DNA of 32,000 nucleotides from Oscillospiraceae bacterium (GCA_017429835.1 JAFROD010000020.1:27927-59926), one strand, 5' to 3'. Positions 6,138-26,883 are shown, counted from the stretch's first letter. Program-made: numbers and translations. The notes: generated by a model not told the origin, from the sequence alone.

Positions 6138-6171
6138 ATGCGACCGTACTCCTTTTCCCTCTCTATTTTCC

Positions 6172-9688: not shown

Positions 9689-10301
9689 GGAACTCTGCGC
9701 GCTGGCGAAAAACGGCGACGCCGACGCGCTGGAGCAGCTCGTAAAAAACAATCTCCCGTTCATCAAAAAACGCGCGAAAGAAATCTGGGAATCGAAGCAG
9801 GCGCTGAACGAAACGCTGGGCGTCGACCGCGACGATCTGGAGCAGGAAGGCGCGATCGGATTGCTCAACTGCGTCGAAAAGTTTCAGCCCGAGCGCGGTT
9901 TCAAATTCCTGACCTATGCCGCGCCGGCGATTCGGAACGCGATGTATGATTATTTCGATGTGCAGGAAGCTGTCTTTGAAAAACGCGACGTGGATCTCGT
10001 AGATTCGCTGGATGAAATCGTGCGCGACGAGTGGACGACCAGGCACAATTTGCTTCCCGACCCGACGCGCAAAACGCCGGAACAAATCTATCTGAAGAAG
10101 GAATGGCTCGGCGAAATACATTGCGCACTGGACGCGGTTTCGGTCAGAGAAAATCAGTACCTGCGCTACCGCTTCGGCTTCGAGGACGAGACTGCGCATC
10201 CGCTGATCGAGACGGCAATTCATTTTCATCTTTCCGAAAGCCGCGCGAAAACTACGGAGAGGTCTGCGCTGAAAAACGTGCGATCGGCGCTGCCGTGGTG
10301 A
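9663..10301 (+). CDS. Sigma-70-family RNA polymerase sigma factor (regions 2 and 4)
   Basis: DDLEQEGAIGLLNCVEKFQPERGFKFLTYAAPAIRNAM resembles region 2. The C-terminal LSVRENQYLRYRFG...ETAIHFHLSESRAKTTERSALKNV resembles region 4. It overlaps the XRE gene by 26 nt. Confidence 0.78.
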   Translation: MKREELSNEELCALAKNGDADALEQLVKNNLPFIKKRAKEIWESKQALNETLGVDRDDLEQEGAIGLLNCVEKFQPERGFKFLTYAAPAIRNAMYDYFDVQEAVFEKRDVDLVDSLDEIVRDEWTTRHNLLPDPTRKTPEQIYLKKEWLGEIHCALDAVSVRENQYLRYRFGFEDETAHPLIETAIHFHLSESRAKTTERSALKNVRSALPW

Positions 10302-10663
10302 AAGCGAAAGCTGCGTCGCTGCGGCGGGTTTTATATCCCTTTTGCGCCCACGGCGAGGCGCCGCCGCTGCGGTCTGCGACCTCCGCTTCGCCGCCTCACC
10401 TGCGCCAGAAGGGCGGGCATTCGTCAGCGTGCGCGCTTCCGAATACCCGCCCTTCTTCTGCCGCGGAAAACGTGCTGTTGTCGTCGTCACAAGCTCCGTA
10501 TCGTTCGTCCTGCCGCAAGCGGCAGGACTCATTCACTCCGCTGTTCCTCCTCTCCCCACAAAACTTCGTTTTGCGGGGACCCCATCGCAGCAGCACCTTT
10601 TCCGCGTCCGCGGCCGCAAAAGGTATAACACACTAGACCTTGCGGGCAAGGTCGTGTGCCAAT

Positions 10664-14100: not shown

Positions 14101-15201
14101 CACCACGCGAAGGATGCCTATCTGAATATCGTAGTTGGCAACGTCTACCACGAGAAATTCACACGCCGATGGTTCGATACGACGCAGAAGTACAACGTTT
14201 CCGTCAAAAAGACGTTCGATAGGGAACAGAAACCTTACGGCAATCTCGTCTGGCGCGGCGCGGAGGACCTCGCGAAGGTACGGAAGATCATGGGCAAAAA
14301 CGCCGCGCACGTGACGCAGTACGCGATTTGCAAACACCGCGGGCAAAATGGTGGATTCTATGATCAGAATCCGCTGAAAGCGAAAGCCGGCTTGATTCCG
14401 CGCAAAGATGGATTGGATACCGAAAAATACGGCGGCTACAACGGCTTAACGACTACGTTCTTCACGCTCGTCAGTTTTACCAACGGTAAAAAGAAGGAAC
14501 TGATGTTCTTCCCCGTGGATCTCCTTTATTGCGAGAAATTTGTTAGCGATCCTGCTTTTGCGACGGCCTACGTTGCGAAGACTTTGAATGAGGCAAACAA
14601 AAAAGCAGACGATATCATATTCCCACTGGGAAGCCGCGTTCTGAAAGTCAATACTGTCCTTTCTCTTGACGGATTCCTGGTCTGCCTTGCGTCCGGCTCT
14701 GTAAAGGACGGCAGAGTGGGCTTCCTTCCTCTGACGCAGTTCGTCTGCGGGTATGAGACCGAGCGGTATATCAAACGGCTGGAACGCCTTAGCGAAAAGG
14801 TTAAGGCTTATCCGAAGTATACTGCTTCTGCGGAGTATGATGGCGTATCGGCGGAGCAGAACGCGAAACTCTTTGACCTATATATTGAAAAACTGACAAA
14901 ATCTGTATTCTCTAAGCGACCTGGCGTGAACGTTGCTGCGTTAGTTGAAAAACGCGACACGTTTTTGGCGCTTCCGCTGGAGCAGCAATGTGCGTCCTTG
15001 CTGAAAATGCATATGATTTTTGCTAGGCAGCCCAATGACGTCGACCTGTCTGATATCGGCCTTGGGAGCAGAGTGTTCAAAGCAAGAAAAAGCATGTTTT
15101 TGTCCGGATGGAAGATAGAATACAGCGAAGTCCGGATTATCGATCAGTCCTCCTCCGGGTTGTTCGCTTCACAAAGCAGAAACCTTCTGGACCTGTTATG
15201 A
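11119..15201 (+). CDS. cas9: Cas9 endonuclease (type II effector), catalytic motifs intact
   Basis: RuvC-I FGIDIGTDSVGYA, arginine-rich bridge helix RTARRRLDRRQQR, HNH YDIDHIYPQS...NNRILV, and RuvC-III DLHHAKDAYLNIV. ATG at 11119 lies 8 nt after GGAGG (11106-11110). The longest ORF begins at TTG 11104. Confidence 0.97.
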   Translation: MSDEILQYFFGIDIGTDSVGYAATSKEYDLLKYRGEPVWGVQTFEAASAAEDRRVNRTARRRLDRRQQRVRLINEIFAPAICKNDPNFFIRRKESALFKEDAQHGVHLFEGGISDKQFHKEYPTIHHLIVDLMRSDAPKDVRLVYLACAWLVANRGHFLFAADSGNVDDFSVPYQEFADICHNDYECGLPWSDATAPDTVLEVMQAELGVTKKTALFVEKVCGGKKPSKKLEEDCPFRRDLIITLLAGGKASMKDLFANEEYGELDSLSLGMEEEAFDAILAELGDDGALVRALRKLYDCALLKKTLRGYTYISDAKIAVYEQHAKDLKWLKQFIRKYKPGDYARVFRRAEAGNYVAYSYNVKSCSAPQEIKKKANKTVFCDYLKKIVEKTDVAPEDQERYDDMMSRLSLYTFLPKQKDTDNRVIPQQLYRCELAQILSQAKRYLPMLTEKDADGLTNEQKILSVFDFRIPYYVGPLNPASSHAWIVRKAGNIYPWNFEKMVDLDASEQAFINRMTNTCTYLPGEDVLPYCSLLYSRFIVLNEINNLKINQQPIPVEVKQAIYTDLFENGTKKKITKKAVCDYLKSRGYLKPSDEISGVDNTLNANLNSYHCFKRLLESGTLSEEQVESIIDHAAYSEDRLRMSRWLEREYPNLSAADRKYILSLKLKEFGRLSRKLLTGIYGCKKNGTGEAFTIMDALWQTNDNLMQLLSENYTFKDQISDFAESYYADPKNKKTLSERLSDMYVSNAVKRPIIRALDIVSDVVKAVGCAPQKIFVEMARGGTPDQKGKRTVTRKQQILDLYKQVKHEDLPKLKQQLEDMGEMANNRLQSDKLFLYYMQLGRCMYSGESIDLSRLTTDTYDIDHIYPQSKVKDDSINNRILVLSSANGVKSDRYPVEASVRAKMGEFWDYLHKNGLISDEKYARLTRTTGFTDDELHQFINRQLVETRQSTKVVAQLLKERYPDTEIVYVKAGMVSEFRQEFEMLKCRTVNDLHHAKDAYLNIVVGNVYHEKFTRRWFDTTQKYNVSVKKTFDREQKPYGNLVWRGAEDLAKVRKIMGKNAAHVTQYAICKHRGQNGGFYDQNPLKAKAGLIPRKDGLDTEKYGGYNGLTTTFFTLVSFTNGKKKELMFFPVDLLYCEKFVSDPAFATAYVAKTLNEANKKADDIIFPLGSRVLKVNTVLSLDGFLVCLASGSVKDGRVGFLPLTQFVCGYETERYIKRLERLSEKVKAYPKYTASAEYDGVSAEQNAKLFDLYIEKLTKSVFSKRPGVNVAALVEKRDTFLALPLEQQCASLLKMHMIFARQPNDVDLSDIGLGSRVFKARKSMFLSGWKIEYSEVRIIDQSSSGLFASQSRNLLDLL

Positions 15202-15689
15202 GTTGGCGCATTGTCGTTGTTTCCGAGCGCTGCAAACTGGATCTGAAAATGGGCTATATGGTCATCCGCGGAGAAGAAACGAGGCGGATTTTTCTGGATG
15301 AGATCGCGATCCTTATGATAGAAAATCCTGCAGTCGCGTTGACCGGGTGTCTGTTGGAAAAACTGACGGAGAAGAAGATTCGCGTCATCTTTTGTGACAC
15401 GAAGAGATCGCCGATTGCGGAGCTCGCCCCGCTCCATGGCAGTCACGATACGCCGCGCAAACTGCAGCAGCAGCTTGCGTGGCGTGAGGAAATAAAGGGG
15501 GCCGTTTGGAGCGCGATCATTGCAGATAAGATTTCAAAGCAGGCGCAGCTGCTGGCAGAGAAGAAAAAGCAAAAAGAAGCGCTGCTTCTCGAATCCTATC
15601 TGCCGCAGATCGAGAACGAACAGGGAAGGACACGCGGCGAAACTATGGTGCAGCATACACCATTGTTTGAGAGTAGTGTAATTCCGTAG
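15198..15689 (+). pseudogene. cas1: Truncated cas1: only the N-terminal ~155 codons remain, and the frame reads into CRISPR repeat 1
   Basis: MSWRIVVVSERCKLDLKMGYMVIRG...IRVIFCDTKRSPIAEL...QLAWREEIKGAVWSAIIADKI matches the N-terminal half of type II Cas1. Its ATG overlaps the cas9 stop (ATGA). Homology stops at ...TPLF, where repeat 1 begins (15665). Type II Cas1 proteins run to roughly 290-300 aa (from memory). Confidence 0.85.
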
Positions 15690-16360
15690 AGGTCTAAAAC
15701 AAGCTCCGACACGTTGACCGTCTGATAGTAGTTTGAGAGTAGTGTAATTCTGTAGAGGTCTAAAACTGTTTTTTCGGACTGCGTGAACCACTCGGTGTTT
15801 GAGAGTAGTGTAATTCTGTAGAGGTCTAAAACTAGCCCGCGGATTTCATCCTCCGTCAGCCCGTTTGAGAGTAGTGTAATTCTGTAGAGGTCTAAAACCT
15901 GCTTGGCATAGACCGAGACGGCGTGATGGTTTGAGAGTAGTGTAATTCTGTAGAGGTCTAAAACCAGGTGATCGACGTCCGCTTTCGGCACATAGTTTGA
16001 GAGTAGTGTAATTCTGTAGAGGTCTAAAACATTGTTTATTCGCCAGTGCTTTATGACGATGTTTGAGAGTAGTGTAATTCTGTAGAGGTCTAAAACTGCT
16101 GTGTCCGGATGTAATAGCAGATCGCGGTTTGAGAGTAGTGTAATTCTGTAGAGGTCTAAAACGCATCGTCTGCTCCTTTCTGCGCTTCAAGCGTTTGAGA
16201 GTAGTGTAATTCTGTAGAGGTCTAAAACATTGAGCCTGAGCCAACGCGCCTGAGCTGTGTTTGAGAGTAGTGTAATTCCGTAGAGGTCTAAAACTTTGCG
16301 CCGCCGCGCCTCTACGGAGGTAAGGTTTGAGAGTAGTGTAATTCCGTAGAGGTCTAAACC
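15665..16360 (+). CRISPR. CRISPR array: 11 repeats of 36 bp and 10 spacers of exactly 30 bp, on a 66-bp period
   Basis: The repeat is GTTTGAGAGTAGTGTAATTCTGTAGAGGTCTAAAAC. Repeats start at 15665, 15731, 15797, 15863, 15929, 15995, 16061, 16127, 16193, 16259 and 16325. Repeats 1, 10 and 11 carry C instead of T at position 20. The last repeat ends ...TAAACC, so it is degenerate. Orientation follows the GTTT...AAAC convention, tracrRNA pairing and the distal degenerate repeat. Confidence 0.98.
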
Positions 16361-16401: not shown

Positions 16402-17019
16402 ATGAAAAACCCTGTGAGCAAACAGGATAAGCAGGCAACGAATCAAAAGCGCCGCCACATAAAAAGGTCTCCCGCTGCATTCGAAGCTGCATTTCAGCAA
16501 AGGATAGGTTTGACGCCGACTCAATGGGTAAAAACCAAAATTGAAAACGGCTCAAGGAAAGATGACGTTAAGTATCTTTTTGAAATATGTGCTGAAGAAA
16601 TTGCGAACGAGAACAATTGTAAGGCGCAGCGCTTTGAACGGTATTACGATCCCGGTATGGTAAAGAAAGAAGGGAAAACAGTGAGACCAAACGCCCCTAA
16701 GTTTTATAACAAACTGGTCCGGGATCTCATTCCCGAAATCATTGAAAAGAGCGGCAAGCGATGCGTTTGCGAAACGCTTTCTCAGGAACAGTACATTGTT
16801 ATGTTGGACGCCAAGCTGAACGAAGAACTCGCAGAATATCAACAGAGCAAATCCCTAGAGGAGCTGGCCGACCTGCTTGAGGTTATGGGCGCAGTCGTTC
16901 ACGCAAGAGGATATACATGGTCACAGCTCACCGAAACCAGAAAGAAGAAGTTAAGTGAGCGCGGCGGTTTTGAAAAGCGCATATTGCTGAAAGAAGTTTA
17001 CGAGGATAATACGAAATAA
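16402..17019 (+). CDS. MazG-like / PRA-PH-like all-alpha NTP pyrophosphohydrolase with an unusual ~100-aa basic N-terminal extension
   Basis: The C-terminal ~100 aa (FYNKLVRDLIPEII...EELAEY...EELADLLEVMGAV...KKKLSERGGFEKRILLKEV) matches the short house-cleaning NTP-PPase family. Start ATG 16402 follows GAGGTAGAGCAA. An internal start at MVKKEG is possible. Confidence 0.7.
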   Translation: MKNPVSKQDKQATNQKRRHIKRSPAAFEAAFQQRIGLTPTQWVKTKIENGSRKDDVKYLFEICAEEIANENNCKAQRFERYYDPGMVKKEGKTVRPNAPKFYNKLVRDLIPEIIEKSGKRCVCETLSQEQYIVMLDAKLNEELAEYQQSKSLEELADLLEVMGAVVHARGYTWSQLTETRKKKLSERGGFEKRILLKEVYEDNTK

Positions 17020-17662: not shown

Positions 17663-17698
17663 AAGAGCACTTCTTTCCGCAGAAAGAAGTGCTCTTTT
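17663..17698 (+). terminator. Rho-independent terminator (perfect 15-bp stem). Copy A of a duplicated hairpin-plus-flank sequence.
   Basis: AAGAGCACTTCTTTC-cgca-GAAAGAAGTGCTCTT followed by TTTT. Compare 22287-22323. Confidence 0.85.
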
Positions 17699-17740
17699 GC
17701 AAATATAGAGAATCTTAGTTTGGAATGACAGTACGGCAAA

Positions 17741-18598
17741 TTAGTCACGTTGCTCACCATTGTTAACACTAATATTGTAACCCGGATGTTCGTTTAATGC
17801 TGTAAAGTATTGTATCATTACATCAATCGGAAAAGGATGCATTTCTTTGGCAGCATCATTTTCATTATCAAACGTCACGATTACTGGCTCCTTGAGTTCT
17901 TGTTCTTTACACAGTCTTTGATAATTTTCATATCCTTTTAGTGCATCATTAAACACAAACTCCAGTGCATGCAAGAATAACGTTTGTATTGCTGCTTGAC
18001 TTTCTCTGATATATGGCCGAAAATCAAAATTGTCTGGAAGAGTCATTATTTCATCCTTCAGTTTGCTCCATCCTTCAAATCTAAGCAATTCGTCTTTAAC
18101 ACACAGCATACTAACGCCGCTTTCCATGGACTGATTAAAAATCGTCAACGGCATACCAAAATGTGTCACATAATTTCGCATTCTTTTACATAGGCGGTAC
18201 CCAAACAATTCATCGTAAAGTTCAGAATCTAATTTTTGGAAACTTGCAAGATCATCTTTTTGATGTTTGGAAATCTCATTTTTTACTACATCAATGAACA
18301 CTGTAATAAAGGAAAGATATGCGATTAGAAGCTTGTTCCCCGTAATCAAGTATGGATCAGATTGAAAACCCTTTTGCTTCTTTAGTAAATCATTTAAAAT
18401 AGAATAGTAGTTTATAAAATCATTTGCGCTTTCATCAACCATTGCTTTTATAATCTTGCATCTTGAATAATATCCCGTAAAGCGAAACCAGTTGAAAAAC
18501 TGATAAAATTCCTCCTCAGAAATCTCGTTCTTTTTCCATAGATTTATCACAATTCCGTCTTTATCTGTACCTAATTCTGTTAGATAGTATTTTCTCAT
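17741..18598 (-). CDS. Hypothetical protein, AT-rich, with a possible HEPN-type Rx4H motif
   Basis: ATG at 18598. The sequence LCKRMRNYVTHFG contains R-N-x-x-x-H, as seen in HEPN/AbiD-F-like proteins. Motif-level evidence only. Confidence 0.6.
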   Translation of the reverse strand: MRKYYLTELGTDKDGIVINLWKKNEISEEEFYQFFNWFRFTGYYSRCKIIKAMVDESANDFINYYSILNDLLKKQKGFQSDPYLITGNKLLIAYLSFITVFIDVVKNEISKHQKDDLASFQKLDSELYDELFGYRLCKRMRNYVTHFGMPLTIFNQSMESGVSMLCVKDELLRFEGWSKLKDEIMTLPDNFDFRPYIRESQAAIQTLFLHALEFVFNDALKGYENYQRLCKEQELKEPVIVTFDNENDAAKEMHPFPIDVMIQYFTALNEHPGYNISVNNGEQRD

Positions 18599-18600
18599 GT

Positions 18601-18756
18601 TTATTGTGCTCCACACATTGTCTTAATATGACGCCCATGAGGAAGAGGCTCTCCATATGACTTCTCGCAAGCATCAATTATGTAGTTTTTTGCCTCTTGG
18701 ATTTGTTCCGAATTTGCAGTTTCATTCCAAATATCGCTGAAAGACAGGCGCTTTTG
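18601..18756 (-). pseudogene. Start-less 3' remnant of a gene formerly upstream of the 17741-18598 gene
   Basis: A 51-codon open frame (..SFSDIWNETANSEQIQEAKNYIIDACEKSYGEPLPHGRHIKTMCGAQ*) runs between an in-frame TAG (18757-18759) and a TAA (18601-18603). It has no canonical start codon, and its stop lies 2 nt before the downstream ATG. Confidence 0.35.
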
Positions 18757-18783
18757 CTATAAACAGCCGCAAACGAAAACTGC

Positions 18784-20922
18784 TCAGATTTCTTCAATCC
18801 CCAAGGATTTCAAATACCGATACGTTCCATCATAGAATTCCGGCAGGCGGGTGCTGTCTTCCCAGAAGCCGCTGGGGGTTTTGTTGGAATTGCCCTCGGG
18901 GACGCAGATCACCATGCCGGCGCGGGCGCGGGTGAGCAGGACGCGGTAGGCGTTCAGCATATACTTCATCTGCTCCTGCTGGTTTTCGGTGTTGCCCAGA
19001 ATCTCGTTCCACTTCGTATTGCCGTTGAAACGATAATAGCGCCATTTGCCGTTCTCATACCGCATATCTGCGTCCCAGAGCAGGCAGGTATAATCGAGCT
19101 CCAAGCCCTGGACCTGTATTTCCGTGGCGGCATCTTCGAGATAGTTGGACGATCGCGTGTCGATCTTATCTTCGAGGAACCAATGGACCGCGTTCTCATC
19201 ACCGGAGGGCAGGATATGTACCGCCAGCGGTTTGTAACGCGCGGACTCTTTCGTCACCAAGACGCCCGTGCGCTCTGTGCCTCGCACTTTGCTATGGAGC
19301 CATCTGCGCGCCTTTGCCATATCTCGCGTAAGCACGATCGGGTACTTGTCTTTGATTTCTTCATAGATCGTCTTTGCGCTTTCATCGAAGGATAGCAAGG
19401 CGTGGACAAACGCGGACAGCTTTTCGGCACGGTAGGAGCGCAAAGAAACGCCTAAGTGCAGGTCTTCTGAATAGGTGACGTTCTGGTTGTTCGCAAGCAG
19501 CTCGTTGACCCGGCCTTCGGCGTATTCCGCCTCGGTCAGCTTGGGCGAAATGTAAACCTTCCAGTGCGAGAATTCCTCGTTGATTGCCTGAATCCACTCG
19601 CTGATTCCGGCCTCGCCGGTGTTGATTTCCTGACCGCCGCCGACCAGACAGATGATCGTCGCCCAGTCTTCGCGCTGATCAAGCGACCAGATCAGGAACG
19701 CCGCTTCGGAAACAGGGAAGTTCGGTACTTTCAGCTTGTTGCCGTATGTTCCGCCACGTTTGAGGTAGTCAGCGAGCCGCTTGTGTGTCCAAGAACGCTG
19801 TGCCTCGTCGAAAATCGCAACATGCTCCACCTCGCCAAAGCCGGCTTCCTCCATTTTGACCGCTTTCGTTGGGTCGATCTCGAGAACGCCGTTTTCAACA
19901 GGGTTCTTGATCTTTGCAAGCATATTGTCACGATAGCGGTGAATCATCTGGATCGATTTGCTCACCTCACGGCGAGAATCGGTCATTTTCTTTTTCTCGC
20001 CATCCTCGCGGCAGCGCTTGTAGTTATCCTGCGCAAGTGCTTCGGTGAGAACAGCAACGAGAGGGCCGTTTCCGGACAGATAAACGGCGCCTTCGTCCTT
20101 CACGGGCTCGGTTTGTCCCTGATAGGTCTGTCGGATCGCCACGTCAAGACCGACAAGCGTTTTCCCTGCGCCGGGAACGCCGGTCACGAAGCAAATGCTC
20201 TTTTCCTGCCGTTCCTTGCTCTGCCGAATTACGTCGAGGATATACGCGATCGTCCGATCAGTGGAAACCTTGTCCGCCTCGTGCCGTGTGATGTTTTCGA
20301 CAGAATGGTTTTCGTACAAAGAGCGCGCAGCTTCGATAATCGTAGGCGTCGGTGCATACGGGCTGATAATCCAGTTGGGATCAACCGGCGTTTCGTTCGG
20401 GAAGCGATTCAGAACGGTGGAAAGCAGATTGAGAATCCCAGACGTGCCGGTCACTAACGGGTTTACCACCTGATCATCATAGACGGACATCTTCACGTCG
20501 GACGATGAACCGCGGTACTCCGTGGCGATGAGAACCGGGACAATGACTTTGTCCTGGCTGAATCTGTGGAAGTTTTTGAGGTCCAGCGCATAATCGAGGA
20601 CCTGATCCACGTCGGCTTCTAGTATAGTTGCCTGTCCGACCTTGAACTCCAAGCAGAAGATAATTCCTCGATAGAGCAGAACGACGTCAATCCGCTTGCC
20701 AAGACGGGGGATATCATACTCGAAAATGATGCGCCCATCCTTGTTGCTCAATAGGGACAAAGCGTCTTTCATTACCGAGATTTCGCCCTTCGACGCCTCT
20801 CTTGTGGTGGTTTTGGCGTCACCGTGGTAACGATCGCACAGCTTGCCGAGGATTGACACGTCTGATTCGTTGAGGAATCCTATAAAGTTGTTGTCATATA
20901 GGCAGCGGGGATTATTTCTCAT
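18784..20922 (-). CDS. DUF2075-type (Schlafen-like) protein: N-terminal PD-(D/E)xK nuclease-like domain plus P-loop ATPase/SF1-like helicase
   Basis: RIDVVLLYRGIIFCLEFKVG (D...ExK), Walker A VTGVPGAGKT, Walker B VAIFDEAQ, and C-terminal NAYRVLLTRARAGMVI (helicase motif VI-like). Confidence 0.78.
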   Translation of the reverse strand: MRNNPRCLYDNNFIGFLNESDVSILGKLCDRYHGDAKTTTREASKGEISVMKDALSLLSNKDGRIIFEYDIPRLGKRIDVVLLYRGIIFCLEFKVGQATILEADVDQVLDYALDLKNFHRFSQDKVIVPVLIATEYRGSSSDVKMSVYDDQVVNPLVTGTSGILNLLSTVLNRFPNETPVDPNWIISPYAPTPTIIEAARSLYENHSVENITRHEADKVSTDRTIAYILDVIRQSKERQEKSICFVTGVPGAGKTLVGLDVAIRQTYQGQTEPVKDEGAVYLSGNGPLVAVLTEALAQDNYKRCREDGEKKKMTDSRREVSKSIQMIHRYRDNMLAKIKNPVENGVLEIDPTKAVKMEEAGFGEVEHVAIFDEAQRSWTHKRLADYLKRGGTYGNKLKVPNFPVSEAAFLIWSLDQREDWATIICLVGGGQEINTGEAGISEWIQAINEEFSHWKVYISPKLTEAEYAEGRVNELLANNQNVTYSEDLHLGVSLRSYRAEKLSAFVHALLSFDESAKTIYEEIKDKYPIVLTRDMAKARRWLHSKVRGTERTGVLVTKESARYKPLAVHILPSGDENAVHWFLEDKIDTRSSNYLEDAATEIQVQGLELDYTCLLWDADMRYENGKWRYYRFNGNTKWNEILGNTENQQEQMKYMLNAYRVLLTRARAGMVICVPEGNSNKTPSGFWEDSTRLPEFYDGTYRYLKSLGIEEI

Positions 20923-20997
20923 AATGATGGTTCCCTTCGTTGAGTGTAATTTGCTGTCTATTTTGCACGTAACGGTGGTTGTGCCGAACGCTTCAAA

Positions 20998-22143
20998 CTA
21001 CGTATCCTTCCTGAGAATATCCAAATACTCATCATAGGTAAATACGAGCGATTTTCCGGATTTGGCGGAGTATTGCAGAATGCCCTTGTCGCGGAGGATC
21101 GTAATATAATTTGCTGTGCCATTTCTGGAAAAGCCGAGCGCAGCTGCTGTTTTGACCGTTTCGATGATTGGGTTTCGCTCGATATAGGCGAACAGATCCA
21201 GGATACGCTGGCGTGAACGGGTCGGAACATCTGCCAGCTTTGCTTCGTTCTTCTGGTGCAGCGCATTCAGACGGTCAATGGTTTCCGTGGCATCTTCGGC
21301 AGTTTCGGCGATTCCACGCAGGAAGAATTTAACCCATTGCTCGTAATTGCCGCTCTTGCGGATCTCGCTCATTCTGTCATAATACTCGATCCGGTTCAAC
21401 TTCAGATAGCAAGACAGATACAACACAGGAGAGGATAATACATTCGCTCCCATCAGGAACAAGGTGATCAACAGCCTGCCGACACGCCCGTTGCCGTCAA
21501 GGAAGGGATGGATCGTTTCAAACTGATAGTGAAGCAGTGCTGCTTTTATCAGTGGATCCATCGCATCGGCATCATTCATGAATCTTTCAAAGTCCGCCAT
21601 ACACTCGGCCATATCCTGCGGATTGGGCGGAATATAGCGGGCATTTTTCAGCGTGCTACCGGGAGGGCCGATCCAGTTCTGCGATACACGGAATTCTCCT
21701 GGCGTTTTATCACTGCCGCGAACGCTGCGCATCAACACTTCGTGTGTTTCCCGGATCAGCCGGTTGCACAAAGGGAGCTCCTTCAGCCGCTGAATGGCAA
21801 AATTGATCGCGCGGACATAATTCACGACATCGGAAACATCGGCGTTTGCATTCTCGTCGATCTCCGGGTCCAGTACATCTTCCAGCGTGCATTGCGTTCC
21901 TTCGATCTGTGAGGAGACCAGCGCTTCCTTCCGGACGTACATGGAGATAAACAGATCCTTATTCGGAATGCGGTCAGATAAGCCGTTGAGCAGCGACAGC
22001 TTCTTGTGCGCGTCGATCAGAAGCTGCTGCATCTCGGTATCAATTTCAAAACTCGGCTCCGGTGGCAGCGGCTGTGGATAGAATGAAGTATACTGCAGTT
22101 CGCCGCTGAGGTTCTGCACCGTTGTTCCCGCACGATTCTTCAT
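20998..22143 (-). CDS. Fic-family protein (AMPylase-type) with a probable C-terminal winged-helix domain
   Basis: Canonical Fic motif HPFLDGNGRVGRLL. The N-terminal region is Fic_N-like. RBS GGAGG lies upstream of ATG 22143. Confidence 0.88.
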   Translation of the reverse strand: MKNRAGTTVQNLSGELQYTSFYPQPLPPEPSFEIDTEMQQLLIDAHKKLSLLNGLSDRIPNKDLFISMYVRKEALVSSQIEGTQCTLEDVLDPEIDENANADVSDVVNYVRAINFAIQRLKELPLCNRLIRETHEVLMRSVRGSDKTPGEFRVSQNWIGPPGSTLKNARYIPPNPQDMAECMADFERFMNDADAMDPLIKAALLHYQFETIHPFLDGNGRVGRLLITLFLMGANVLSSPVLYLSCYLKLNRIEYYDRMSEIRKSGNYEQWVKFFLRGIAETAEDATETIDRLNALHQKNEAKLADVPTRSRQRILDLFAYIERNPIIETVKTAAALGFSRNGTANYITILRDKGILQYSAKSGKSLVFTYDEYLDILRKDT

Positions 22144-22175
22144 TGCGAAACCTCCAATTTGCGTTTTCTACCGGT

Positions 22176-22204
22176 AGTATAGCATAGAAAACGCACAAAA
22201 TCAA
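22176..22204 (-). promoter_or_regulatory. Promoter of the Fic gene, overlapped by an inverted-repeat operator
   Basis: Minus strand TTGATT (22204-22199), 17-nt spacer, TATACT (22181-22176). The inverted repeat GCGTTTTCTA (22161-22170) / TAGAAAACGC (22185-22194) brackets the -10 element. Confidence 0.55.
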
Positions 22205-22218
22205 TAGTTTGTGAGTTT
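22185..22218. repeat. 34-bp direct repeat, copy 1 (operator-like)
   Basis: TAGAAAACGCACAAAATCAATAGTTTGTGAGTTT. Confidence 0.8.
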
Positions 22219-22235
22219 TCCAAAGATAATTGTTT

Positions 22236-22269
22236 TAGAAAACGCAAAAAATCGACAGTTTGTGAGTTT
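22236..22269. repeat. 34-bp direct repeat, copy 2
   Basis: TAGAAAACGCAAAAAATCGACAGTTTGTGAGTTT, identical to copy 1 at 30 of 34 positions and 51 bp away. Confidence 0.8.
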
Positions 22270-22286
22270 GCCTAAAGCGGACAGAA

Positions 22287-22323
22287 AAGAGCGTTTCTTT
22301 CCGAGGAAAGAAGCGCTCTTTTT
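22287..22323 (+). terminator. Orphan terminator-like hairpin. Copy B of the sequence at 17663-17698.
   Basis: AAGAGCGTTTCTTTCC-ga-GGAAAGAAGCGCTCTT followed by TTT. No plus-strand gene ends upstream of it. The flank ATATAGAGA is shared with copy A. Confidence 0.6.
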
Positions 22324-22579
22324 GGGATATAGAGATAGAAACTTGTGATAAATCCGGAGAGCTATCATATCGTCAATGTACTGTTTTTCGCCCCAATGTA
22401 CTGTTCTTTCAGCTCACCGCTGATGTGCATCGTCCGGTCTGCATGCAGCGCAGAAATAAGCAGCACTAATTTTTCTGGAGAAGATGCGGCTCAAAAATTA
22501 GCGTTGCTAATTTTTCGGCAGATGCGGCAGATAGTTTACTTGAATTCTGATGAATCAGAAATATAACATCACATTGACA

Positions 22580-22730: not shown

Positions 22731-22759
22731 TTGCGTTTCGGCGGCTTCGGCGGTATAAT
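22731..22759 (+). promoter_or_regulatory. Strong sigma-A-type promoter at the head of the cassette array
   Basis: TTGCGT (22731-22736), 17-nt spacer, TATAAT (22754-22759), about 70 nt upstream of the first cassette start. Confidence 0.65.
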
Positions 22760-22780
22760 CAGTACAGAGCGAACGCTTCG

Positions 22781-22819
22781 CAGAGGAAAAGCATCCCGGC
22801 AAATCGGGGTTTGAGGAGG
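22781..22819 (+). repeat. Cassette-junction repeat R0 (shortened; right half conserved)
   Basis: CAGAGGAAAAGCATCCCGGCAAATCGGGGTTTGAGGAGG. Confidence 0.7.
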
Positions 22820-22827
22820 AAATGAAA

Positions 22828-23700
22828 ATGCAATACGAAATCATGCCCTGTGTAGACGGCGATGCGGAATACATCGAAGAACAGGCGGATCAGGCGACAA
22901 ACGCCATCGCACCGCCGGTGGAAGGCGCGCAGGAAGAGGTGTTCATTTATCAAGTCACAGACACGGACGGACGTTTTCTGGGCGGGTGTATTCTGGTTAC
23001 AGAAGAATGGAAGACCGCGATCATCGTTGACCTGTGGGTGGAAGAAGCCTATCGTCATCAGGGAATCGCCTCCGCGCTGATCCGGGAATCCGAGCGGAAA
23101 GCCCGGGAAATGGGATGCTATCTTATGCTGATCGGCACCTTCGATTTTCAGGCGAAGCCCCTCTATGACAAACATGGCTATGCGCTGATCGAAACCATGA
23201 CGGATTATCCAAAGGGGCATGAACACTATTTCTTACAGAAGCGGCTTGACCGTCCTGACGGCGAAGCCGCCCCATCCGATCTCGGCAGTTACAAGATTAC
23301 CCTTGCGGGGGAAGAAATCGCAGAAAAGCTCTCTGCCAGGCTGAATCGGCATGACGAAGCCTGTGTTCCGCGGGAACACCCTTACATCTCCATTTGCAAA
23401 AAGGCAATCGACGAGAATGGGAAACTCATCGCCGGGATCGTAGGAGGCGTGGATGGATGGGATAATCCGGATATCGATGCGCTTTGGGTGGACGAAGCCT
23501 GCCGCAAGCAAGGGATCGCTTCCGCGCTTCTCCGTGCGTTCGAGCGGGAGGCAAAGGGAAACGGCGCCTACAGGCTGGCTATTGAGCCGTTCGATTGGAA
23601 CGTCGGTTTTTTCAGGAAGAATGGGTACGAAACAGTCACTGGCGTGCTGGAGGATTATCCGAAAGGGCATACCATGTACTGCATGGAGAAGCCTCTTTGA
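22828..23700 (+). CDS. Tandem-domain GNAT acetyltransferase (cassette 1)
   Basis: Two GNAT cores: VEEAYRHQGIASALI and VDEACRKQGIASALL. ATG 22828 lies 8 nt after GGAGG. The alternative ATG at 22822 lies only 2 nt after it. Confidence 0.8.
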   Translation: MQYEIMPCVDGDAEYIEEQADQATNAIAPPVEGAQEEVFIYQVTDTDGRFLGGCILVTEEWKTAIIVDLWVEEAYRHQGIASALIRESERKAREMGCYLMLIGTFDFQAKPLYDKHGYALIETMTDYPKGHEHYFLQKRLDRPDGEAAPSDLGSYKITLAGEEIAEKLSARLNRHDEACVPREHPYISICKKAIDENGKLIAGIVGGVDGWDNPDIDALWVDEACRKQGIASALLRAFEREAKGNGAYRLAIEPFDWNVGFFRKNGYETVTGVLEDYPKGHTMYCMEKPL

Positions 23701-23712
23701 CTGGCCCACTGA

Positions 23713-23776
23713 CAAATTCCGGTTTGCGGAGACAGGCAAATCATAAACGATCCCGGCAAATCGGGATTTGCGGAGG
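23713..23776 (+). repeat. Cassette-junction repeat R1
   Basis: CAAATTCCGGTTTGCGGAGACAGGCAAATCATAAACGATCCCGGCAAATCGGGATTTGCGGAGG. Confidence 0.9.
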
Positions 23777-23782
23777 CAAAAA

Positions 23783-24703
23783 GTGCAGAAACGAATACGC
23801 ATAATCACAGGATTTCTTGCTGGTGTAATAGTTATTTCGCTGGCAGCTTGTTCTGCAAGCAAAGAGGAATCAATGTTCGACAAGATCAAAGAGAGTCAAG
23901 CTGCAAAGATGGAATCAGATGAAGCGACGCTGTCTGATCTCCCGGTGTACAGTTACACCTGGAGGATGGCAGAAGCCCTCGATGATTCATCTTATGATGA
24001 ATACATGCATGATGACGGCCAGCGGTTTCATAGTCTTATGTCATTTTCTGAAAAGTTGCGGTCCTCGGAAGAACTTACATTTACACCTTATACAAGCAAT
24101 CTGGTGGAGCTACTCAATCTCACGATTCCGGATCAATGCATGGTAAACTACGGAACAGAGTTCGCCGGAGAGTCTGTTTATGAAATAGAGGGCGAACCTG
24201 CGGTAGCGGCAGAGGCTGTACAGGTGACAGAAAACTTCTTTGATCTGTTTCCTTTGCAGGTTGCAGAAGGTCGTGGATTCACCGACGATGATTATGACTA
24301 CCTGGGTAAAGGGAGGATTCCTGTAATTCTCGGAACGACATACAAAGAAACATTTTCAATTGGTGATACGTTTGAAGGATATTACATTTTTGAACGTTTC
24401 ACCTTTGAAGTAATAGGTTTTGCGGAAGGCGGAAGAGTTTTTTACAGCAGCGGCGACCGTATGCCTGTATCATACGATCGTTATATCATTATGCCTTTTG
24501 CTTCCATTTACGAAGATTCTGAAATCAGCCGGATCATACTACTGCAGCAAATCTGTGGATTGATTACAGATGGGGACGGAAGACAGGAAGCGCTGAATCA
24601 AGTTAATGAATTGCTCGCAGAAACCGGTCTGAAGGATTGGATTGGTCAAATCTATATTACGGACGACAGCTTAAGGACGATGATTCAGTATTACTTGAAC
24701 TAA
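23783..24703 (+). CDS. Lipoprotein with a MacB/FtsX-type periplasmic-domain-like region (cassette 2)
   Basis: GTG 23783 lies 6 nt after GGAGG. The signal peptide is QKRIRIITGFLAGVIVISLAAC. VTENFFDLFPLQVAEGRGFTDDD resembles the extracytoplasmic domain of MacB-like permeases. Confidence 0.65.
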   Translation: MQKRIRIITGFLAGVIVISLAACSASKEESMFDKIKESQAAKMESDEATLSDLPVYSYTWRMAEALDDSSYDEYMHDDGQRFHSLMSFSEKLRSSEELTFTPYTSNLVELLNLTIPDQCMVNYGTEFAGESVYEIEGEPAVAAEAVQVTENFFDLFPLQVAEGRGFTDDDYDYLGKGRIPVILGTTYKETFSIGDTFEGYYIFERFTFEVIGFAEGGRVFYSSGDRMPVSYDRYIIMPFASIYEDSEISRIILLQQICGLITDGDGRQEALNQVNELLAETGLKDWIGQIYITDDSLRTMIQYYLN

Positions 24704-24730
24704 CCTTCTCAAACAATCTCGGATGTTTAA

Positions 24731-24794
24731 CAAATTCTGGTTTGCGGAGGCAGCAAATCATAAACGATCCCGGCAGATCGGGATTTGAGGAAGG
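24731..24794 (+). repeat. Cassette-junction repeat R2
   Basis: CAAATTCTGGTTTGCGGAGGCAGCAAATCATAAACGATCCCGGCAGATCGGGATTTGAGGAAGG. Confidence 0.9.
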
Positions 24795-24799
24795 ACGTT

Positions 24800-25024
24800 A
24801 TGAACGAAAATAAGAATAACAAGAACGGCAAGAAAGGCAATAATTCATCCGGCCTTGCGATTGGTATGTGTATTGGAATTTCGATCGGGACAGCTATCGG
24901 AGCGGCAACGCACAATATCGGATTGTGGATGCCCATCGGACTTTCTGTTGGGTTGTGTCTCGGTATGGTGTTGGGACATAACAGTGAAGATGATAACGAG
25001 GATGGCACGGACGATAAGCAATAG
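24800..25024 (+). CDS. Small glycine-zipper membrane protein (cassette 3)
   Basis: 74 aa. The sequence GLAIGMCIGISIGTAIGAATHNIGLWMPIGLSVGLCLGMVLG forms two hydrophobic Gly-rich helices. Confidence 0.6.
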   Translation: MNENKNNKNGKKGNNSSGLAIGMCIGISIGTAIGAATHNIGLWMPIGLSVGLCLGMVLGHNSEDDNEDGTDDKQ

Positions 25025-25029
25025 GCATA

Positions 25030-25085
25030 CAAATTCCTGTTTGTCGAAGCAAAAAACGATCCCGGCAAATCGGAATTTACGGAGG
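25030..25085 (+). repeat. Cassette-junction repeat R3 (8-nt internal deletion, more diverged)
   Basis: CAAATTCCTGTTTGTCGAAGCAAAAAACGATCCCGGCAAATCGGAATTTACGGAGG. Confidence 0.85.
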
Positions 25086-25093
25086 AATATATT

Positions 25094-25708
25094 ATGACAG
25101 AAAAAGAAAAAATGCAAAAGAAGATGCTCTATGACGCAAATTACGACGAATCGCTTCTAAAAGAAAGAAACATAGCAAAAGATCTTTGCTATGAGTATAA
25201 TCAACTCCGACCGTCCGATGAACTGCATCAACAGGAGATTATGAAAAAGCTTCTCGGCAAAACCAAAGGAGCGTTTACCATCGTCGCTCCGTTTTGGTGC
25301 GATTACGGTTATAATATCGAAATAGGAGAAAATTTTTTTGCTAACCACAACACTATTATTCTTGACGGTGGGAAGGTGGTTTTTGGAGATAATGTTTTTA
25401 TTGCTCCGGACTGTGGCTTTCACACAGCAGGACATCCTATTGATTTTGAGAGAAGGAATCAAGGATTGGAATATGCCTATCCCATTACTGTCGGGGATAA
25501 TGTGTGGATTGGCGCAGGTGTTCAAGTAATGCCCGGCGTGACCATAGGAAGCAATGTTGTTATTGGCGGCGGCAGCGTGGTTGTTAAAGACATTCCTAAT
25601 AATTCAGTCGCTGTTGGTAATCCTTGCAAAGTGATTCGAGAAATCACGGAAGCGGATAAACTTAAATGCTGGGATAAATTCCGGTTTACAGAGGCAGGCA
25701 AATCATAA
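25094..25708 (+). CDS. Maltose/galactoside-type sugar O-acetyltransferase, left-handed beta-helix (cassette 4)
   Basis: N-terminal Mac-domain-like MLYDANYDESLLKERNIAKDLCYEYNQLRP. Hexapeptide repeats are VWIGAGVQVMPGVTIGSNVVIGGGSVVVKDIP. The stop TAA lies inside repeat R4. Confidence 0.85.
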   Translation: MTEKEKMQKKMLYDANYDESLLKERNIAKDLCYEYNQLRPSDELHQQEIMKKLLGKTKGAFTIVAPFWCDYGYNIEIGENFFANHNTIILDGGKVVFGDNVFIAPDCGFHTAGHPIDFERRNQGLEYAYPITVGDNVWIGAGVQVMPGVTIGSNVVIGGGSVVVKDIPNNSVAVGNPCKVIREITEADKLKCWDKFRFTEAGKS

Positions 25709-25737
25709 ACGATCCCGGCAAATCGTGATTGCGGAGG
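25675..25737 (+). repeat. Cassette-junction repeat R4
   Basis: TAAATTCCGGTTTACAGAGGCAGGCAAATCATAAACGATCCCGGCAAATCGTGATTGCGGAGG. Confidence 0.9.
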
Positions 25738-25742
25738 GGAGT

Positions 25743-26285
25743 ATGACAGAGATATCACTTTTGCAACTGGAATTGCTTTTTGCGCTTATCTGGCTTGCAT
25801 GCAGAATCGTTGTTTGGATAAGAAAACGGAGGATAGATTGGAAGCGGGAAGCCGTTCTCCTTCTGATGTTTGTTAATCTTGCGGTCATCATTCGGTTTGT
25901 TTTCTTTCCGATGTCCCGCGTTAACGGGAAGGTTCAGTCGCTAAGGTTCGACCCCGCTGCAGTCTTTCCTTTCAAGCTCAACCTGCTTCCTTTTGTGCAT
26001 CTGTTAGAGTATGACAGTAAAAAAGAAATGCTTCTCAACGTAATAGGAAATACGGCGATGTTCATCCCAACCGGTGTCATTCTTCCGATCATCTCTAAAA
26101 AGCTGAAAACATTTTGGAGGGTCATAGGTGTTGGCGCGCTGATTTCGCTATGCATAGAGATTATCCAACTTCCTTTCTTTGAAAGGACTTCGGATATCGA
26201 CGATCTGCTCCTTAACACGCTCGGTGTCGCGATCGGCTATTTGATTTATAAACTCGTGCTTAAACTGATTAAAAGAAGACGATAA
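25743..26285 (+). CDS. VanZ-family membrane protein (cassette 5)
   Basis: Four or five transmembrane helices. NVIGNTAMFIPTGVILP and DIDDLLLNTLGVAIGY are typical VanZ-like signatures. The stop TAA is the first three nt of R5. Confidence 0.78.
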   Translation: MTEISLLQLELLFALIWLACRIVVWIRKRRIDWKREAVLLLMFVNLAVIIRFVFFPMSRVNGKVQSLRFDPAAVFPFKLNLLPFVHLLEYDSKKEMLLNVIGNTAMFIPTGVILPIISKKLKTFWRVIGVGALISLCIEIIQLPFFERTSDIDDLLLNTLGVAIGYLIYKLVLKLIKRRR

Positions 26286-26346
26286 ATTCCAGCTTACAGA
26301 GGCAGGCAAATCATAAACGATCCCGGCAAATCGATATTTGTAGAGG
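26283..26346 (+). repeat. Cassette-junction repeat R5
   Basis: TAAATTCCAGCTTACAGAGGCAGGCAAATCATAAACGATCCCGGCAAATCGATATTTGTAGAGG. Confidence 0.9.
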
Positions 26347-26356
26347 TAATACGGAT

Positions 26357-26815
26357 ATGAAAATCAAACTGGAACCGATTAACGATACTAATCGCGAGGC
26401 TGTGCTGGCGCTAACTGTGCGTGAAGATCAGCTATTTGTCGCGCCGAACGATTATTCATTAAGCGAGGCCGATGAGGCCAATGCCAACGCGCCCGGCACG
26501 GCGAGGCCGTTTGCGATCTATGCGGGCGAAAAGATTGTCGGCTTCTGTATGCTCGCCCTGGACCCCGAGGATGAGAATCCTGTTGACAGATACTGTCTCT
26601 GGCGTTTTATGATCGACAAAAACGAACAGGGCAAGGGCTACGGTCAGGCGGCGCTTCATGAGATCATCAAGTATTTCAAAGAGAACGGTGTGGACACGAT
26701 CTATCTGTCGACTGCACCTGAGAACGAGGTCGGATTGCACGTGTACCATAAGGCGGGCTTTAAGGAAACAGGAGAGATGGAAGACGGAGAAGCTATTTTT
26801 GTTTTGACACTCTAA
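26357..26815 (+). CDS. GNAT-family N-acetyltransferase (cassette 6)
   Basis: FMIDKNEQGKGYGQAAL is the Q/RxxGxG motif. 152 aa. The stop TAA is the first three nt of R6. Confidence 0.8.
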   Translation: MKIKLEPINDTNREAVLALTVREDQLFVAPNDYSLSEADEANANAPGTARPFAIYAGEKIVGFCMLALDPEDENPVDRYCLWRFMIDKNEQGKGYGQAALHEIIKYFKENGVDTIYLSTAPENEVGLHVYHKAGFKETGEMEDGEAIFVLTL

Positions 26816-26875
26816 ATTCCGGTTTACAGAGGCAGGCAAATCATAAACGATCCCGGCAAATCGGGATTGCGGAGG
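26813..26875 (+). repeat. Cassette-junction repeat R6
   Basis: TAAATTCCGGTTTACAGAGGCAGGCAAATCATAAACGATCCCGGCAAATCGGGATTGCGGAGG. Confidence 0.9.
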
Positions 26876-26883
26876 TAAAGAAA

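What the first reader, a model, noticed from the sequence alone, without database searches (positions are those of the whole stretch)
17663..22345. 4.6-kb three-gene island (Fic, DUF2075 nuclease-ATPase, Rx4H protein) bracketed by diverged direct copies of a terminator hairpin, making it a candidate defence module
Seen: the sequences at 17663-17720 and 22287-22345 are related.
- Copy A: AAGAGCACTTCTTTCCGCAGAAAGAAGTGCTCTTTTGCAAATATAGAGA
- Copy B: AAGAGCGTTTCTTTCCGAGGAAAGAAGCGCTCTTTTTGGGATATAGAGA
- Base changes on the two arms of the hairpin preserve pairing.
- Copy B terminates no gene.

Between the copies, all on the minus strand, are:
- a Fic protein with motif HPFLDGNGRVGR;
- a 712-aa DUF2075-type protein with a PD-(D/E)xK-like N-terminus and Walker A/B motifs;
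- a start-less gene remnant;
- an AT-rich 285-aa protein with RNYVTH (an HEPN-like Rx4H motif).

Inference: the block is an insertion next to the XRE gene's terminator. Its domain set (AMPylase, nuclease-helicase and possible HEPN RNase) resembles anti-phage or abortive-infection gene sets. I do not recognise this combination as a named system.
Basis: partly seen in the sequence, partly recalled or inferred. Interest (0 to 1): 0.62.

Follow-up and report, generated by a model that had tools for sequence, protein, structure and literature searches.

The report
Stacked single-gene phage-defence modules
The three genes are not one defence system: they are three separately acquired anti-phage genes stacked in the cargo slot of a mobile island, and only the third, a 285-aa protein of an undescribed family with an invariant RNxxxH motif, is new.

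Summary
Hairpin copies A (17663-17711) and B (22287-22335) match at 40 of 49 bases; the next best match in the 2.35-Mb genome is 30 of 49. All four reading frames are as described.

The "three-gene island" reading does not hold.
- The Fic gene is a SoFic-type single-gene defence protein. A congeneric genome (G004) has Fic, hairpin B and the right flank at 94-98% identity, but restriction-modification genes in place of everything to the left.
- The 712-aa gene is a nuclease plus DUF2075 helicase (Nhi-like architecture; PADLOC candidate PDC-S41). In 16 other loci only the ORF is shared. None carries Fic or the 285-aa gene; the neighbours scanned were mostly other defence systems.
- The 285-aa gene has 34% GC in a 57% GC genome. 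Its family is absent from Pfam, NCBIfam and PADLOC.
  - Y134, R141 and H146 are invariant in 89 diverse members.
  - The structure model is confident, but has no significant PDB or BFVD match.
  - Relatives lie inside a type I R-M operon, next to Shedu, and on Bacillus subtilis plasmid pBS32.
  - A HEPN-like RNase role is plausible but not shown.

The hairpins are related terminators. B belongs to the island backbone. Earlier scan notes describe similar junction repeats on other DNA.

The parts
17663..17711 (.). Hairpin copy A: 15-bp stem, 4-nt loop, T-run and ATATAGAGA. It lies between the converging XRE gene (+) and 285-aa gene (-), so it is probably their shared terminator.
   Evidence: It is unique to this genome among those searched.
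17741..18598 (-). 285-aa protein of an uncharacterised family with an invariant Y134...R141-N-x3-H146 motif. Candidate HEPN-like abortive-infection RNase. GC is 33.9%.
   Evidence: no family match; family and invariant residues; AF2 pLDDT 94.5; no fold match; defence contexts.
18604..18756 (-). 51-codon frame without a start codon, with its stop at 18601-18603. It looks like the 3' remnant of an unidentified gene that arrived with the 285-aa gene.
   Evidence: No homologue was found.
18784..20922 (-). 712-aa nuclease-helicase: an N-terminal PD-(D/E)xK domain plus an SF1 / DUF2075 (SLFN-g3 helicase) ATPase. It matches PADLOC candidate PDC-S41 and has the Nhi-like architecture.
   Evidence: Pfam E 4e-64; PDC-S41 E 7e-241; nuclease fold; moves alone, among defence genes.
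20998..22143 (-). 381-aa class II Fic AMP-transferase of the SoFic type. It has the inhibitory motif SSQIEG (residues 77-82) and the Fic motif HPFLDGNGRVGR (212-223). It is part of the island backbone shared with G004.
   Evidence: G004.
22176..22275 (-). Fic promoter-like site (22204-22176) and two tandem 40-nt units. Each unit holds a 13-nt inverted repeat (GAAAACKCACAAA-N8-TTTGTGMGTTTTC). The first unit overlaps the -35 hexamer, so it is a likely operator.
   Evidence: One unit also lies beside hairpin B in contig L041, which has no Fic.
22287..22335 (.). Hairpin copy B: 16-bp stem with an A-tract before and a T-tract after. It follows no gene. It is conserved at the same place in G004 and occurs in metagenome contig L041.
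10834..20997 (.). Variable cargo slot of the island. Here it holds Cas9, a truncated cas1, a CRISPR array, a MazG-like gene, a 73-aa gene plus XRE, the 285-aa gene and the DUF2075 gene. In G004 the same slot holds about 14.7 kb, including restriction-modification genes.

Best explanation
The 4.6-kb stretch is a mosaic of three independent single-gene anti-phage modules. They are stacked head to tail in the variable cargo slot of a low-GC mobile island.

1. Fic is a SoFic-type class II AMP-transferase. On infection it is expected to AMPylate host proteins and abort the infection. It belongs to the island backbone together with hairpin B.
2. The 712-aa protein is a PD-(D/E)xK nuclease fused to an SF1/DUF2075 motor, the Nhi-like architecture. 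It is expected to degrade phage DNA. The gene moves between genomes as a bare ORF.
3. The 285-aa protein came from a low-GC donor with a stub of a neighbouring gene. I infer that it is a stand-alone abortive-infection effector, probably a metal-independent RNase using R141/N142/H146.

No terminator is predicted between the genes. They are therefore probably read from the Fic promoter through to hairpin A. Hairpin B would shield the Fic promoter from upstream transcription. The two hairpins are truly related terminators, but they do not delimit a unit that moves together.

Shown here: the identities, the mosaic origin and the lack of conserved linkage. Inferred: the activities, the co-transcription and the role of the hairpins.
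For: Identities:
- PADLOC SoFic E 3e-118 and PDC-S41 E 7e-241, both nearly full length. Pfam Fic_N + Fic and SLFN-g3_helicase.
- The nuclease-domain model has only PD-(D/E)xK nucleases among its best PDB matches (Cdn1, McrC, Can2, Hjc). E68, D79, E92 and K94 are invariant.

Mosaic origin:
- GC is 33.9% (285-aa gene), 53.6% (DUF2075) and 51.0% (Fic), against 57.4% for the genome.
- G004 shares the recombinase, backbone segments, and Fic + hairpin B + right flank at 87-98% identity. Its slot content is entirely different, with the break at the Fic stop codon.
- DNA homology in 14 DUF2075 loci is limited to window 18784-20925.

No linkage:
- 0 of 16 DUF2075 loci and 0 of 12 Fic loci hold the other genes.
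- Seven of the 10 DUF2075 neighbours scanned match defence families: IetS, GmrSD-like, CBASS, type I restriction enzymes and a GajB-like helicase. One more is a second DUF2075-type protein.

285-aa family:
- 1387 cluster representatives. Y134, R141 and H146 are invariant and N142 nearly so.
- AF2 pLDDT 94.5, with the motif at the end of helix 132-146. That is where HEPN motifs lie (PMC3710099).
- Relatives lie between hsdS and hsdR, next to a Shedu gene and on pBS32.

Literature: SoFic and Nhi-like are each single-protein systems (preprint 10.1101/2022.05.11.491447).
Against: - No experiment.
- Co-transcription rests only on the absence of predicted terminators.
- The Fic protein scores far below NCBIfam's SoFic equivalog cut-off (181 against 550 bits).
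- The 285-aa protein has no significant fold or profile match to any HEPN protein. hhalign against Abi_2 aligned only the motif (probability 1.4%).
- One relative of the 285-aa family stands beside rimM, with no defence gene in the 1.7-kb contig.
- A distant, shortened member in G977 lies about 500 nt from a SoFic-type Fic. A loose Fic link is therefore not fully excluded.
- Why hairpin A resembles hairpin B remains unexplained.
Confidence: 0.72

Rival explanations
1. One reading: the three genes form one cooperating defence system that was inserted as a single block.
For: The genes share a strand and are closely spaced (75 and 185 nt), with no predicted terminator between them. Related hairpins flank the block. 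In G977 a distant 285-family member lies near a SoFic-type Fic.
Against: G004 has Fic and hairpin B without the other two genes. 0 of 16 DUF2075 loci and 0 of 12 Fic loci carry the partner genes. The three genes have three different GC contents. A gene stub lies between two of them. SoFic and Nhi-like are each reported as single-protein systems, and the PADLOC models matched here are SoFic and the candidate PDC-S41.
Confidence: 0.06
2. The hairpin is a junction element of this island family. Cargo blocks are gained or swapped by recombination at copies of it, for example by single-crossover integration of a circular intermediate. Copies A and B would then be the scars of one such accretion.
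For: A and B are related far above background. Hairpin B lies next to different genes in three contexts: the window, G004 and L041. Hairpin A lies exactly at the step from about 46% to 34% GC. Earlier scan notes report similar junction repeats in gut Clostridia islands (unchecked).
Against: Only two or three independent instances are known. No copy was found beside DUF2075 or 285-family genes elsewhere, nor a second copy in G004. None was found in 53 other genomes of the genus or in viral contigs. No empty site was found, and no recombinase lies nearby. The slot boundary seen against G004 lies at the Fic stop codon, not at a hairpin.
Confidence: 0.3
3. The 285-aa protein is not a nuclease or defence effector. 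It could be a regulator, an immunity or anti-defence partner, or a decaying passenger gene. On this reading its RNxxxH motif serves binding, not catalysis.
For: There is no fold or profile match to HEPN proteins. The fold has large beta inserts. One relative stands alone beside rimM. No promoter-like site was found for the gene. Its presumed upstream partner survives only as a stub.
Against: The frame is intact and matches the family model over its full length (E 4.6e-84). R, N and H are invariant across 89 sequences with only about 23% mean column identity. It recurs next to defence genes. It is rare and patchy, found in 3 of about 800 other Bacillota genomes, as defence genes typically are.
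Confidence: 0.3
4. The hairpin similarity is convergence. Terminators of this bacterial family share a common style, so two of them can look alike without common descent.
For: Covariance-model matches in 56 other genomes of the family are ordinary terminators of the form A-tract, GAGC..TTCCG-NN-GGAA..GCTC, T-tract. One terminator elsewhere in the same contig reaches 30/49 against copy B.
Against: 40/49 stands ten matches above the best unrelated hit in 4.7 million positions. The copies also share ATATAGAGA beyond the T-run.
Confidence: 0.07

Closest known systems
SoFic (stand-alone class II Fic defence protein; Millman et al. 2022; Sofic toxin study PMC12249575)
   Same: Fic_N + Fic domains. 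N-terminal inhibitory motif SxxxEG. HxFxDGNGRxxR motif. Full-length match to the PADLOC SoFic model. No conserved partner gene.
   Different: It is only distantly related to the Shewanella protein, scoring below NCBIfam's equivalog cut-off. There is no room for an AS1-like small gene downstream (75-nt gap). Here it is preceded by two palindromic operator-like units and a hairpin.
Nhi-like (Millman et al. 2022) and Nhi (Bari et al. 2022); PADLOC candidate PDC-S41
   Same: One protein with an N-terminal PD-(D/E)xK nuclease and a DUF2075 / SF1 ATPase with Walker A and B motifs. It is found among defence genes and moves as a single gene.
   Different: There is almost no match to PADLOC's Nhi model (E 0.0014 over about 25 residues). 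Whether PDC-S41 contains the tested Bacillus cereus Nhi-like protein could not be checked here. No pyrophosphatase partner is adjacent.
HEPN abortive-infection RNases (Abi_2/AbiD-F, AbiV, and PrrC/RloC embedded in type I R-M loci)
   Same: An R-N-x3-H motif at the end of a helix in an all-alpha core. About 280-300 aa and stand-alone. One subfamily lies between hsdS and hsdR, as prrC does.
   Different: No Pfam HEPN family matches. hhalign against Abi_2 aligned only the motif. Foldseek found no HEPN structure. Beta hairpins are inserted before and after the helical core.
Defence islands and cargo hotspots of integrative mobile elements
   Same: A conserved backbone with a slot whose content differs between close relatives. 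The slot is filled with unrelated defence systems: CRISPR-Cas9, R-M, and the SoFic and Nhi-like types.
   Different: The bounding element here is a short terminator-like hairpin duplicated at 82% identity. It is not an att site, and no recombinase lies beside the slot.

Membership tests
SoFic-type Fic defence protein | Fic active-site motif HxFx(D/E)GNGRxxR | tested here: met
   HPFLDGNGRVGR at residues 212-223. Pfam Fic E 1.7e-22.
SoFic-type Fic defence protein | Class II N-terminal inhibitory helix motif (S/T)xxxE(G/N) | tested here: met
   SSQIEG at residues 77-82. Pfam Fic_N E 6.9e-26. The class definition is taken from PMC12249575.
SoFic-type Fic defence protein | Full-length match to a curated SoFic model | tested here: inconclusive
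   PADLOC SoFic E 3.4e-118, covering 5-360 of 361 positions. NCBIfam's equivalog model gives 180.9 bits against a cut-off of 550.
SoFic-type Fic defence protein | Protects against phage as a single gene | not testable with these tools
   Needs a phage-challenge assay. The comparative data fit a stand-alone gene.
Nhi-like / PDC-S41 nuclease-helicase | N-terminal nuclease domain | tested here: met
   E68, D79, E92 and K94 are invariant. The best-scoring PDB fold matches shown are almost all PD-(D/E)xK-type nucleases, with best E 1.6e-3 and probability 0.99.
Nhi-like / PDC-S41 nuclease-helicase | DUF2075 (PF09848) ATPase with Walker A and B motifs | tested here: met
   PF09848 E 4e-64. GVPGAGKT at residues 248-255 and IFDEAQR at 370-376. 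PDC-S41 E 7e-241.
Nhi-like / PDC-S41 nuclease-helicase | Sequence relationship to a tested Nhi or Nhi-like protein | tested here: inconclusive
   PADLOC's Nhi model matches at only E 0.0014 over residues 236-263. The tested B. cereus Nhi-like sequence was not at hand.
HEPN superfamily (285-aa protein) | Conserved Rx4-6H motif with a polar residue after R | tested here: met
   R141 and H146 are invariant, and N142 is conserved in at least 90% of 89 diverse members.
HEPN superfamily (285-aa protein) | Motif at the end of helix 3 of a four-helix up-down bundle | tested here: inconclusive
   The motif ends helix 132-146, within long helices 40-72, 81-112, 114-130 and 194-232.
HEPN superfamily (285-aa protein) | Fold or profile similarity to known HEPN domains | tested here: not met
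   Foldseek found no match with E <= 0.001 in PDB or BFVD, and no HEPN entry in the top 50. No Pfam HEPN family matched any of 89 members. hhalign against Abi_2 gave probability 1.4%.
Multi-gene defence system (Fic + DUF2075 + 285-aa) | The genes are co-localised in other genomes | tested here: not met
   0 of 16 DUF2075 loci, 0 of 12 Fic loci and G004. The only exception is a distant 285-family fragment near a Fic gene in G977.
Inserted element flanked by direct repeats | An empty site with one repeat copy in relatives, and a block that moves as a unit | tested here: not met
   Single-copy sites exist in G004 and L041, but they still carry Fic or other genes. No empty site was found in 60 relatives, in the other 54 genomes of the genus, or in one metagenome scan.

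The most novel reading that the evidence does not exclude
The 285-aa protein founds an undescribed family of single-gene anti-phage effectors. The family has at least 1387 cluster representatives and includes a gene on B. subtilis plasmid pBS32. It carries an HEPN-like R-N-x3-H catalytic site in a fold with no solved or catalogued relative. It would act as an infection-triggered RNase, and one subfamily would guard type I restriction-modification loci as PrrC does.
Probability: 0.3. Interest if true: 0.6.

Novelty: new member of a known kind. Interest (0 to 1): 0.36.

Why it matters
The region shows how defence islands are built. Single-gene modules of different origin are stacked one behind another inside a mobile element, and come to look like an operon. 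Taking such stacks for multi-gene systems would inflate catalogues of "new systems".

The one real lead is the 285-aa family. It is large but absent from Pfam, NCBIfam and PADLOC. It has a confident predicted fold and an invariant nuclease-like motif, and it recurs next to restriction-modification and Shedu genes. A member on pBS32 in the laboratory organism Bacillus subtilis NCIB 3610 makes it directly testable.

Tried and rejected
- Three-gene system: rejected on the neighbourhood data and on G004.
- Hairpin A as the ancestral XRE terminator: rejected. Eight XRE-module relatives carry unrelated downstream sequence.
- Hairpin as a dispersed repeat: rejected. There are only two copies in the genome. 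In the genus only G004 has it. One metagenome contig has it and no viral contig does. Covariance-model matches elsewhere are generic terminators.
- Rfam: no family in the window.
- Identity of the 51-codon remnant: no match to the neighbours of 285-family genes, to plasmids, or to 100 related genomes.
- A conserved upstream partner for the 285-aa gene: rejected. The neighbours differ in every context, and one relative stands alone.
- Family assignment of the 285-aa protein: nothing consistent from Pfam, NCBIfam or PADLOC on the protein or on 89 relatives, from a PDB sequence profile, or from Foldseek against PDB and BFVD. hhalign against Abi_2, against the DUF5677 neighbour and against the 185-aa neighbour in L020 also gave nothing.
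- Phage or viral copies of the 285-aa family: none.

Full report
**Observation**

Copies A (17663-17711) and B (22287-22335) match at 40 of 49 positions without gaps. I slid each copy over the whole 2,346,236-base genome on both strands. Each copy's best non-self match is the other (40/49). The best unrelated match is 30/49. No dinucleotide shuffle of the window gave a match with three or fewer mismatches.

Both copies fold into strong hairpins, at -24.6 and -26.0 kcal/mol on the plus strand, with z near -6. The stem differs at two pairs. One is a double change (A-U to G-C). The other is one-sided (C-G to U.G), which pairs only in plus-strand RNA. Pairing is kept, but one compensatory event carries no statistical weight: 121 of 500 shuffles do as well. 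Beyond the hairpin, the T-run and ATATAGAGA, the flanks are not alike.

**The three proteins**

*Fic, 381 aa.* It has Pfam Fic_N and Fic domains, the class II inhibitory motif SSQIEG, and HPFLDGNGRVGR. It matches PADLOC's SoFic model over its full length (E 3.4e-118). It falls below NCBIfam's equivalog cut-off.

*DUF2075 protein, 712 aa.* It matches Pfam PF09848 (SLFN-g3 helicase, formerly DUF2075; E 4e-64) and PADLOC candidate PDC-S41 from end to end (E 7e-241).
- Its first 235 residues have invariant E68, D79, E92 and K94.
- A model of that domain (pLDDT 82) has restriction-endonuclease-fold proteins as its best PDB matches: Cdn1, McrC, Can2, Card1, Bax1 and Hjc. E-values are marginal, from 1.6e-3, but the fold class is consistent.
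- Nuclease plus DUF2075 is the architecture that Millman et al. named Nhi-like and tested as a single protein. The same paper lists SoFic as a stand-alone defence protein.

*285-aa protein.* It matches nothing in Pfam, NCBIfam or PADLOC.

**Are they one unit? No**

1. Base composition differs. GC is 33.9% for the 285-aa gene, 53.6% for DUF2075 and 51.0% for Fic, in a genome of 57.4%.
2. G004, another species of the genus, carries a related island.
   - It shares the large serine recombinase gene at 87% identity, backbone pieces at 88-95%, and window 20998-22450 (Fic, its promoter, hairpin B) and beyond at 94-98%.
   - Between window 10833 and 20998, G004 has about 14.7 kb of other genes: two cytosine methyltransferases, a restriction-enzyme-like gene, Vsr, an HNH protein and others.
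   - Homology resumes exactly at the Fic stop codon. Fic and hairpin B therefore belong to the backbone. The DUF2075 and 285-aa genes lie in a variable slot together with Cas9 and the CRISPR array.
3. Of 16 loci encoding DUF2075 relatives (all but two at 78-96% protein identity), none has Fic or the 285-aa gene. Where DNA similarity was detectable (14 loci), it stops within 3 nt of the ORF. Seven of the ten neighbours I scanned match defence families: IetS, a GmrSD-like protein, CBASS E1-E2 and effector, type I restriction enzymes and a GajB-like helicase.
4. Twelve Fic orthologue loci (43-64% identity) lack both other genes.

An earlier scan note places the window inside a 38-kb recombinase-borne island in spoVT. 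I confirmed only that G004 shares the recombinase and backbone.

**The 285-aa family**

- *Size and conservation.* A profile search of 1.84 billion cluster representatives found 1387 members at E <= 0.001, and 384 at E <= 1e-10. In an alignment of 89 members with 23% mean column identity, Y134, R141 and H146 are invariant. N88, D129, F136, N142, P150, L171 and W177 are nearly so.
- *Predicted structure.* AlphaFold2 gives pLDDT 94.5 and pTM 0.91. The model has an N-terminal beta hairpin, long helices and beta inserts. RNYVTH closes helix 132-146. [quoted passage not shown]
- *No match to known HEPN proteins.* Foldseek found no significant match in PDB or BFVD and no HEPN entry among the top 50. 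No Pfam HEPN family matches any member. hhalign against 26 Abi_2 proteins aligned just the two RNxxxH motifs (20 columns, probability 1.4%, P 0.037). The HEPN-like site is well supported. HEPN membership is not.
- *Genomic context.* One subfamily lies between hsdS and hsdR of a type I R-M operon on four contigs. A member in G333 lies next to a Shedu (SduA_C) gene. Forty-two pBS32-type Bacillus plasmid records carry one in an accessory region. One stands alone beside rimM.
- *Distribution.* It was found in 3 of about 800 other Bacillota genomes and in no phage or viral contig. The pattern is rare, patchy and defence-linked.

The 51-codon stub upstream has no detectable relative. Since family members have different neighbours, the stub is probably a piece of the donor context and not a lost obligate partner.

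**The hairpins**

- Hairpin B is conserved in G004 at the same place. It also occurs in metagenome contig L041, together with one operator-like unit. Both outer flanks there are different, and a methyltransferase operon stands where Fic would be.
- Hairpin A is unique to this genome. It lies where GC drops from about 46% to 34%.
- XRE-module relatives in eight genomes end with unrelated sequence.
- A covariance model built from the copies finds only ordinary terminators elsewhere. They share a house style of A-tract, GAGC...TTCCG-NN-GGAA...GCTC and T-tract, and score about half as high.

My reading is that A and B are related by descent. A ends the convergent XRE transcript and the Fic-DUF2075-285 read-through transcript. 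B insulates the Fic promoter. Whether the pair is a scar of cargo accretion at a junction element stays open (about 0.3). Other windows of this scan have been read that way, but those notes are unchecked.

**Verdict**

This is an ordinary defence-island mosaic made of one tested single-gene system (SoFic), one catalogued single-gene candidate (PDC-S41, Nhi-like architecture) and one uncharacterised candidate. The hairpin bracket is real, but it does not define a mobile three-gene module.

Noticed in passing
window 22185-22275: Two tandem 40-nt units in the Fic promoter. Each holds a 13-nt inverted repeat (GAAAACKCACAAA-N8-TTTGTGMGTTTTC), and the first overlaps the predicted -35 hexamer. One unit also lies beside hairpin B in contig L041, where no Fic gene follows, so the repressor may belong to the island and not be Fic itself.
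   Followed up: partly
L110 (G977:C87) 8106-8723 and 9230-10438: A shortened, distant member of the 285-aa family (RNYFLH kept) lies about 500 nt from a divergently oriented SoFic-type Fic. That Fic is 57% identical to the window's, but its motif reads HPFLDRNGRIGR (G to R). This is the only other case of the two families being near each other.
   Followed up: partly
L044 (NC_021809.1, pBS32) 5941-6780: Bacillus subtilis NCIB 3610 plasmid pBS32 encodes a 279-aa relative (WP_009968507.1, 24% identity). It lies between a tetratricopeptide-repeat (TPR) protein gene and hypothetical genes, a few kb from the prophage-like terminase genes. I found no paper on it.
   Followed up: partly
window 22749-26880 against L014 17009-19535: The plus-strand gene array right of hairpin B is joined by a repeat of about 66 nt. 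G004 lacks the GNAT cassette (22840-23750) and the stretch 24785-26814, so cassette content differs between the two species. This was already noted in the scan (e1-3800909).
   Followed up: partly
window 15108-16360: The Cas1-like frame is only 193 codons long and runs straight into a CRISPR array of 66-nt period with at least 11 repeats. No cas2 was seen. This was already noted in the scan (e1-3800910).
   Followed up: no
window 16402-17019: A MazG-like 205-aa gene lies 1.8 kb from the DUF2075 gene. Earlier scan notes report nuclease-helicase genes paired with NTP pyrophosphatases. Here the two are not adjacent, and no relative of this gene occurs in the 16 DUF2075 loci.
   Followed up: partly
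L061-L072; G000:C58:72392-72449: Terminators across this bacterial family share a common form: A-tract, GAGC, stem, TTCCG-NN-GGAA loop region, GCTC, T-tract. This raises background similarity between unrelated hairpins to about 60%.
   Followed up: partly
L041 139-245 against L014 4372-4478: The metagenome contig that carries hairpin B also shares 107 nt at 79% identity with a spot inside G004's variable slot. This is another sign that short non-coding pieces are shared between differently loaded islands.
   Followed up: no
G000:C30:32941-33480: The same genome encodes an Abi_2 (AbiD/F-type HEPN) protein elsewhere, with the motif RNAAAH.
   Followed up: no
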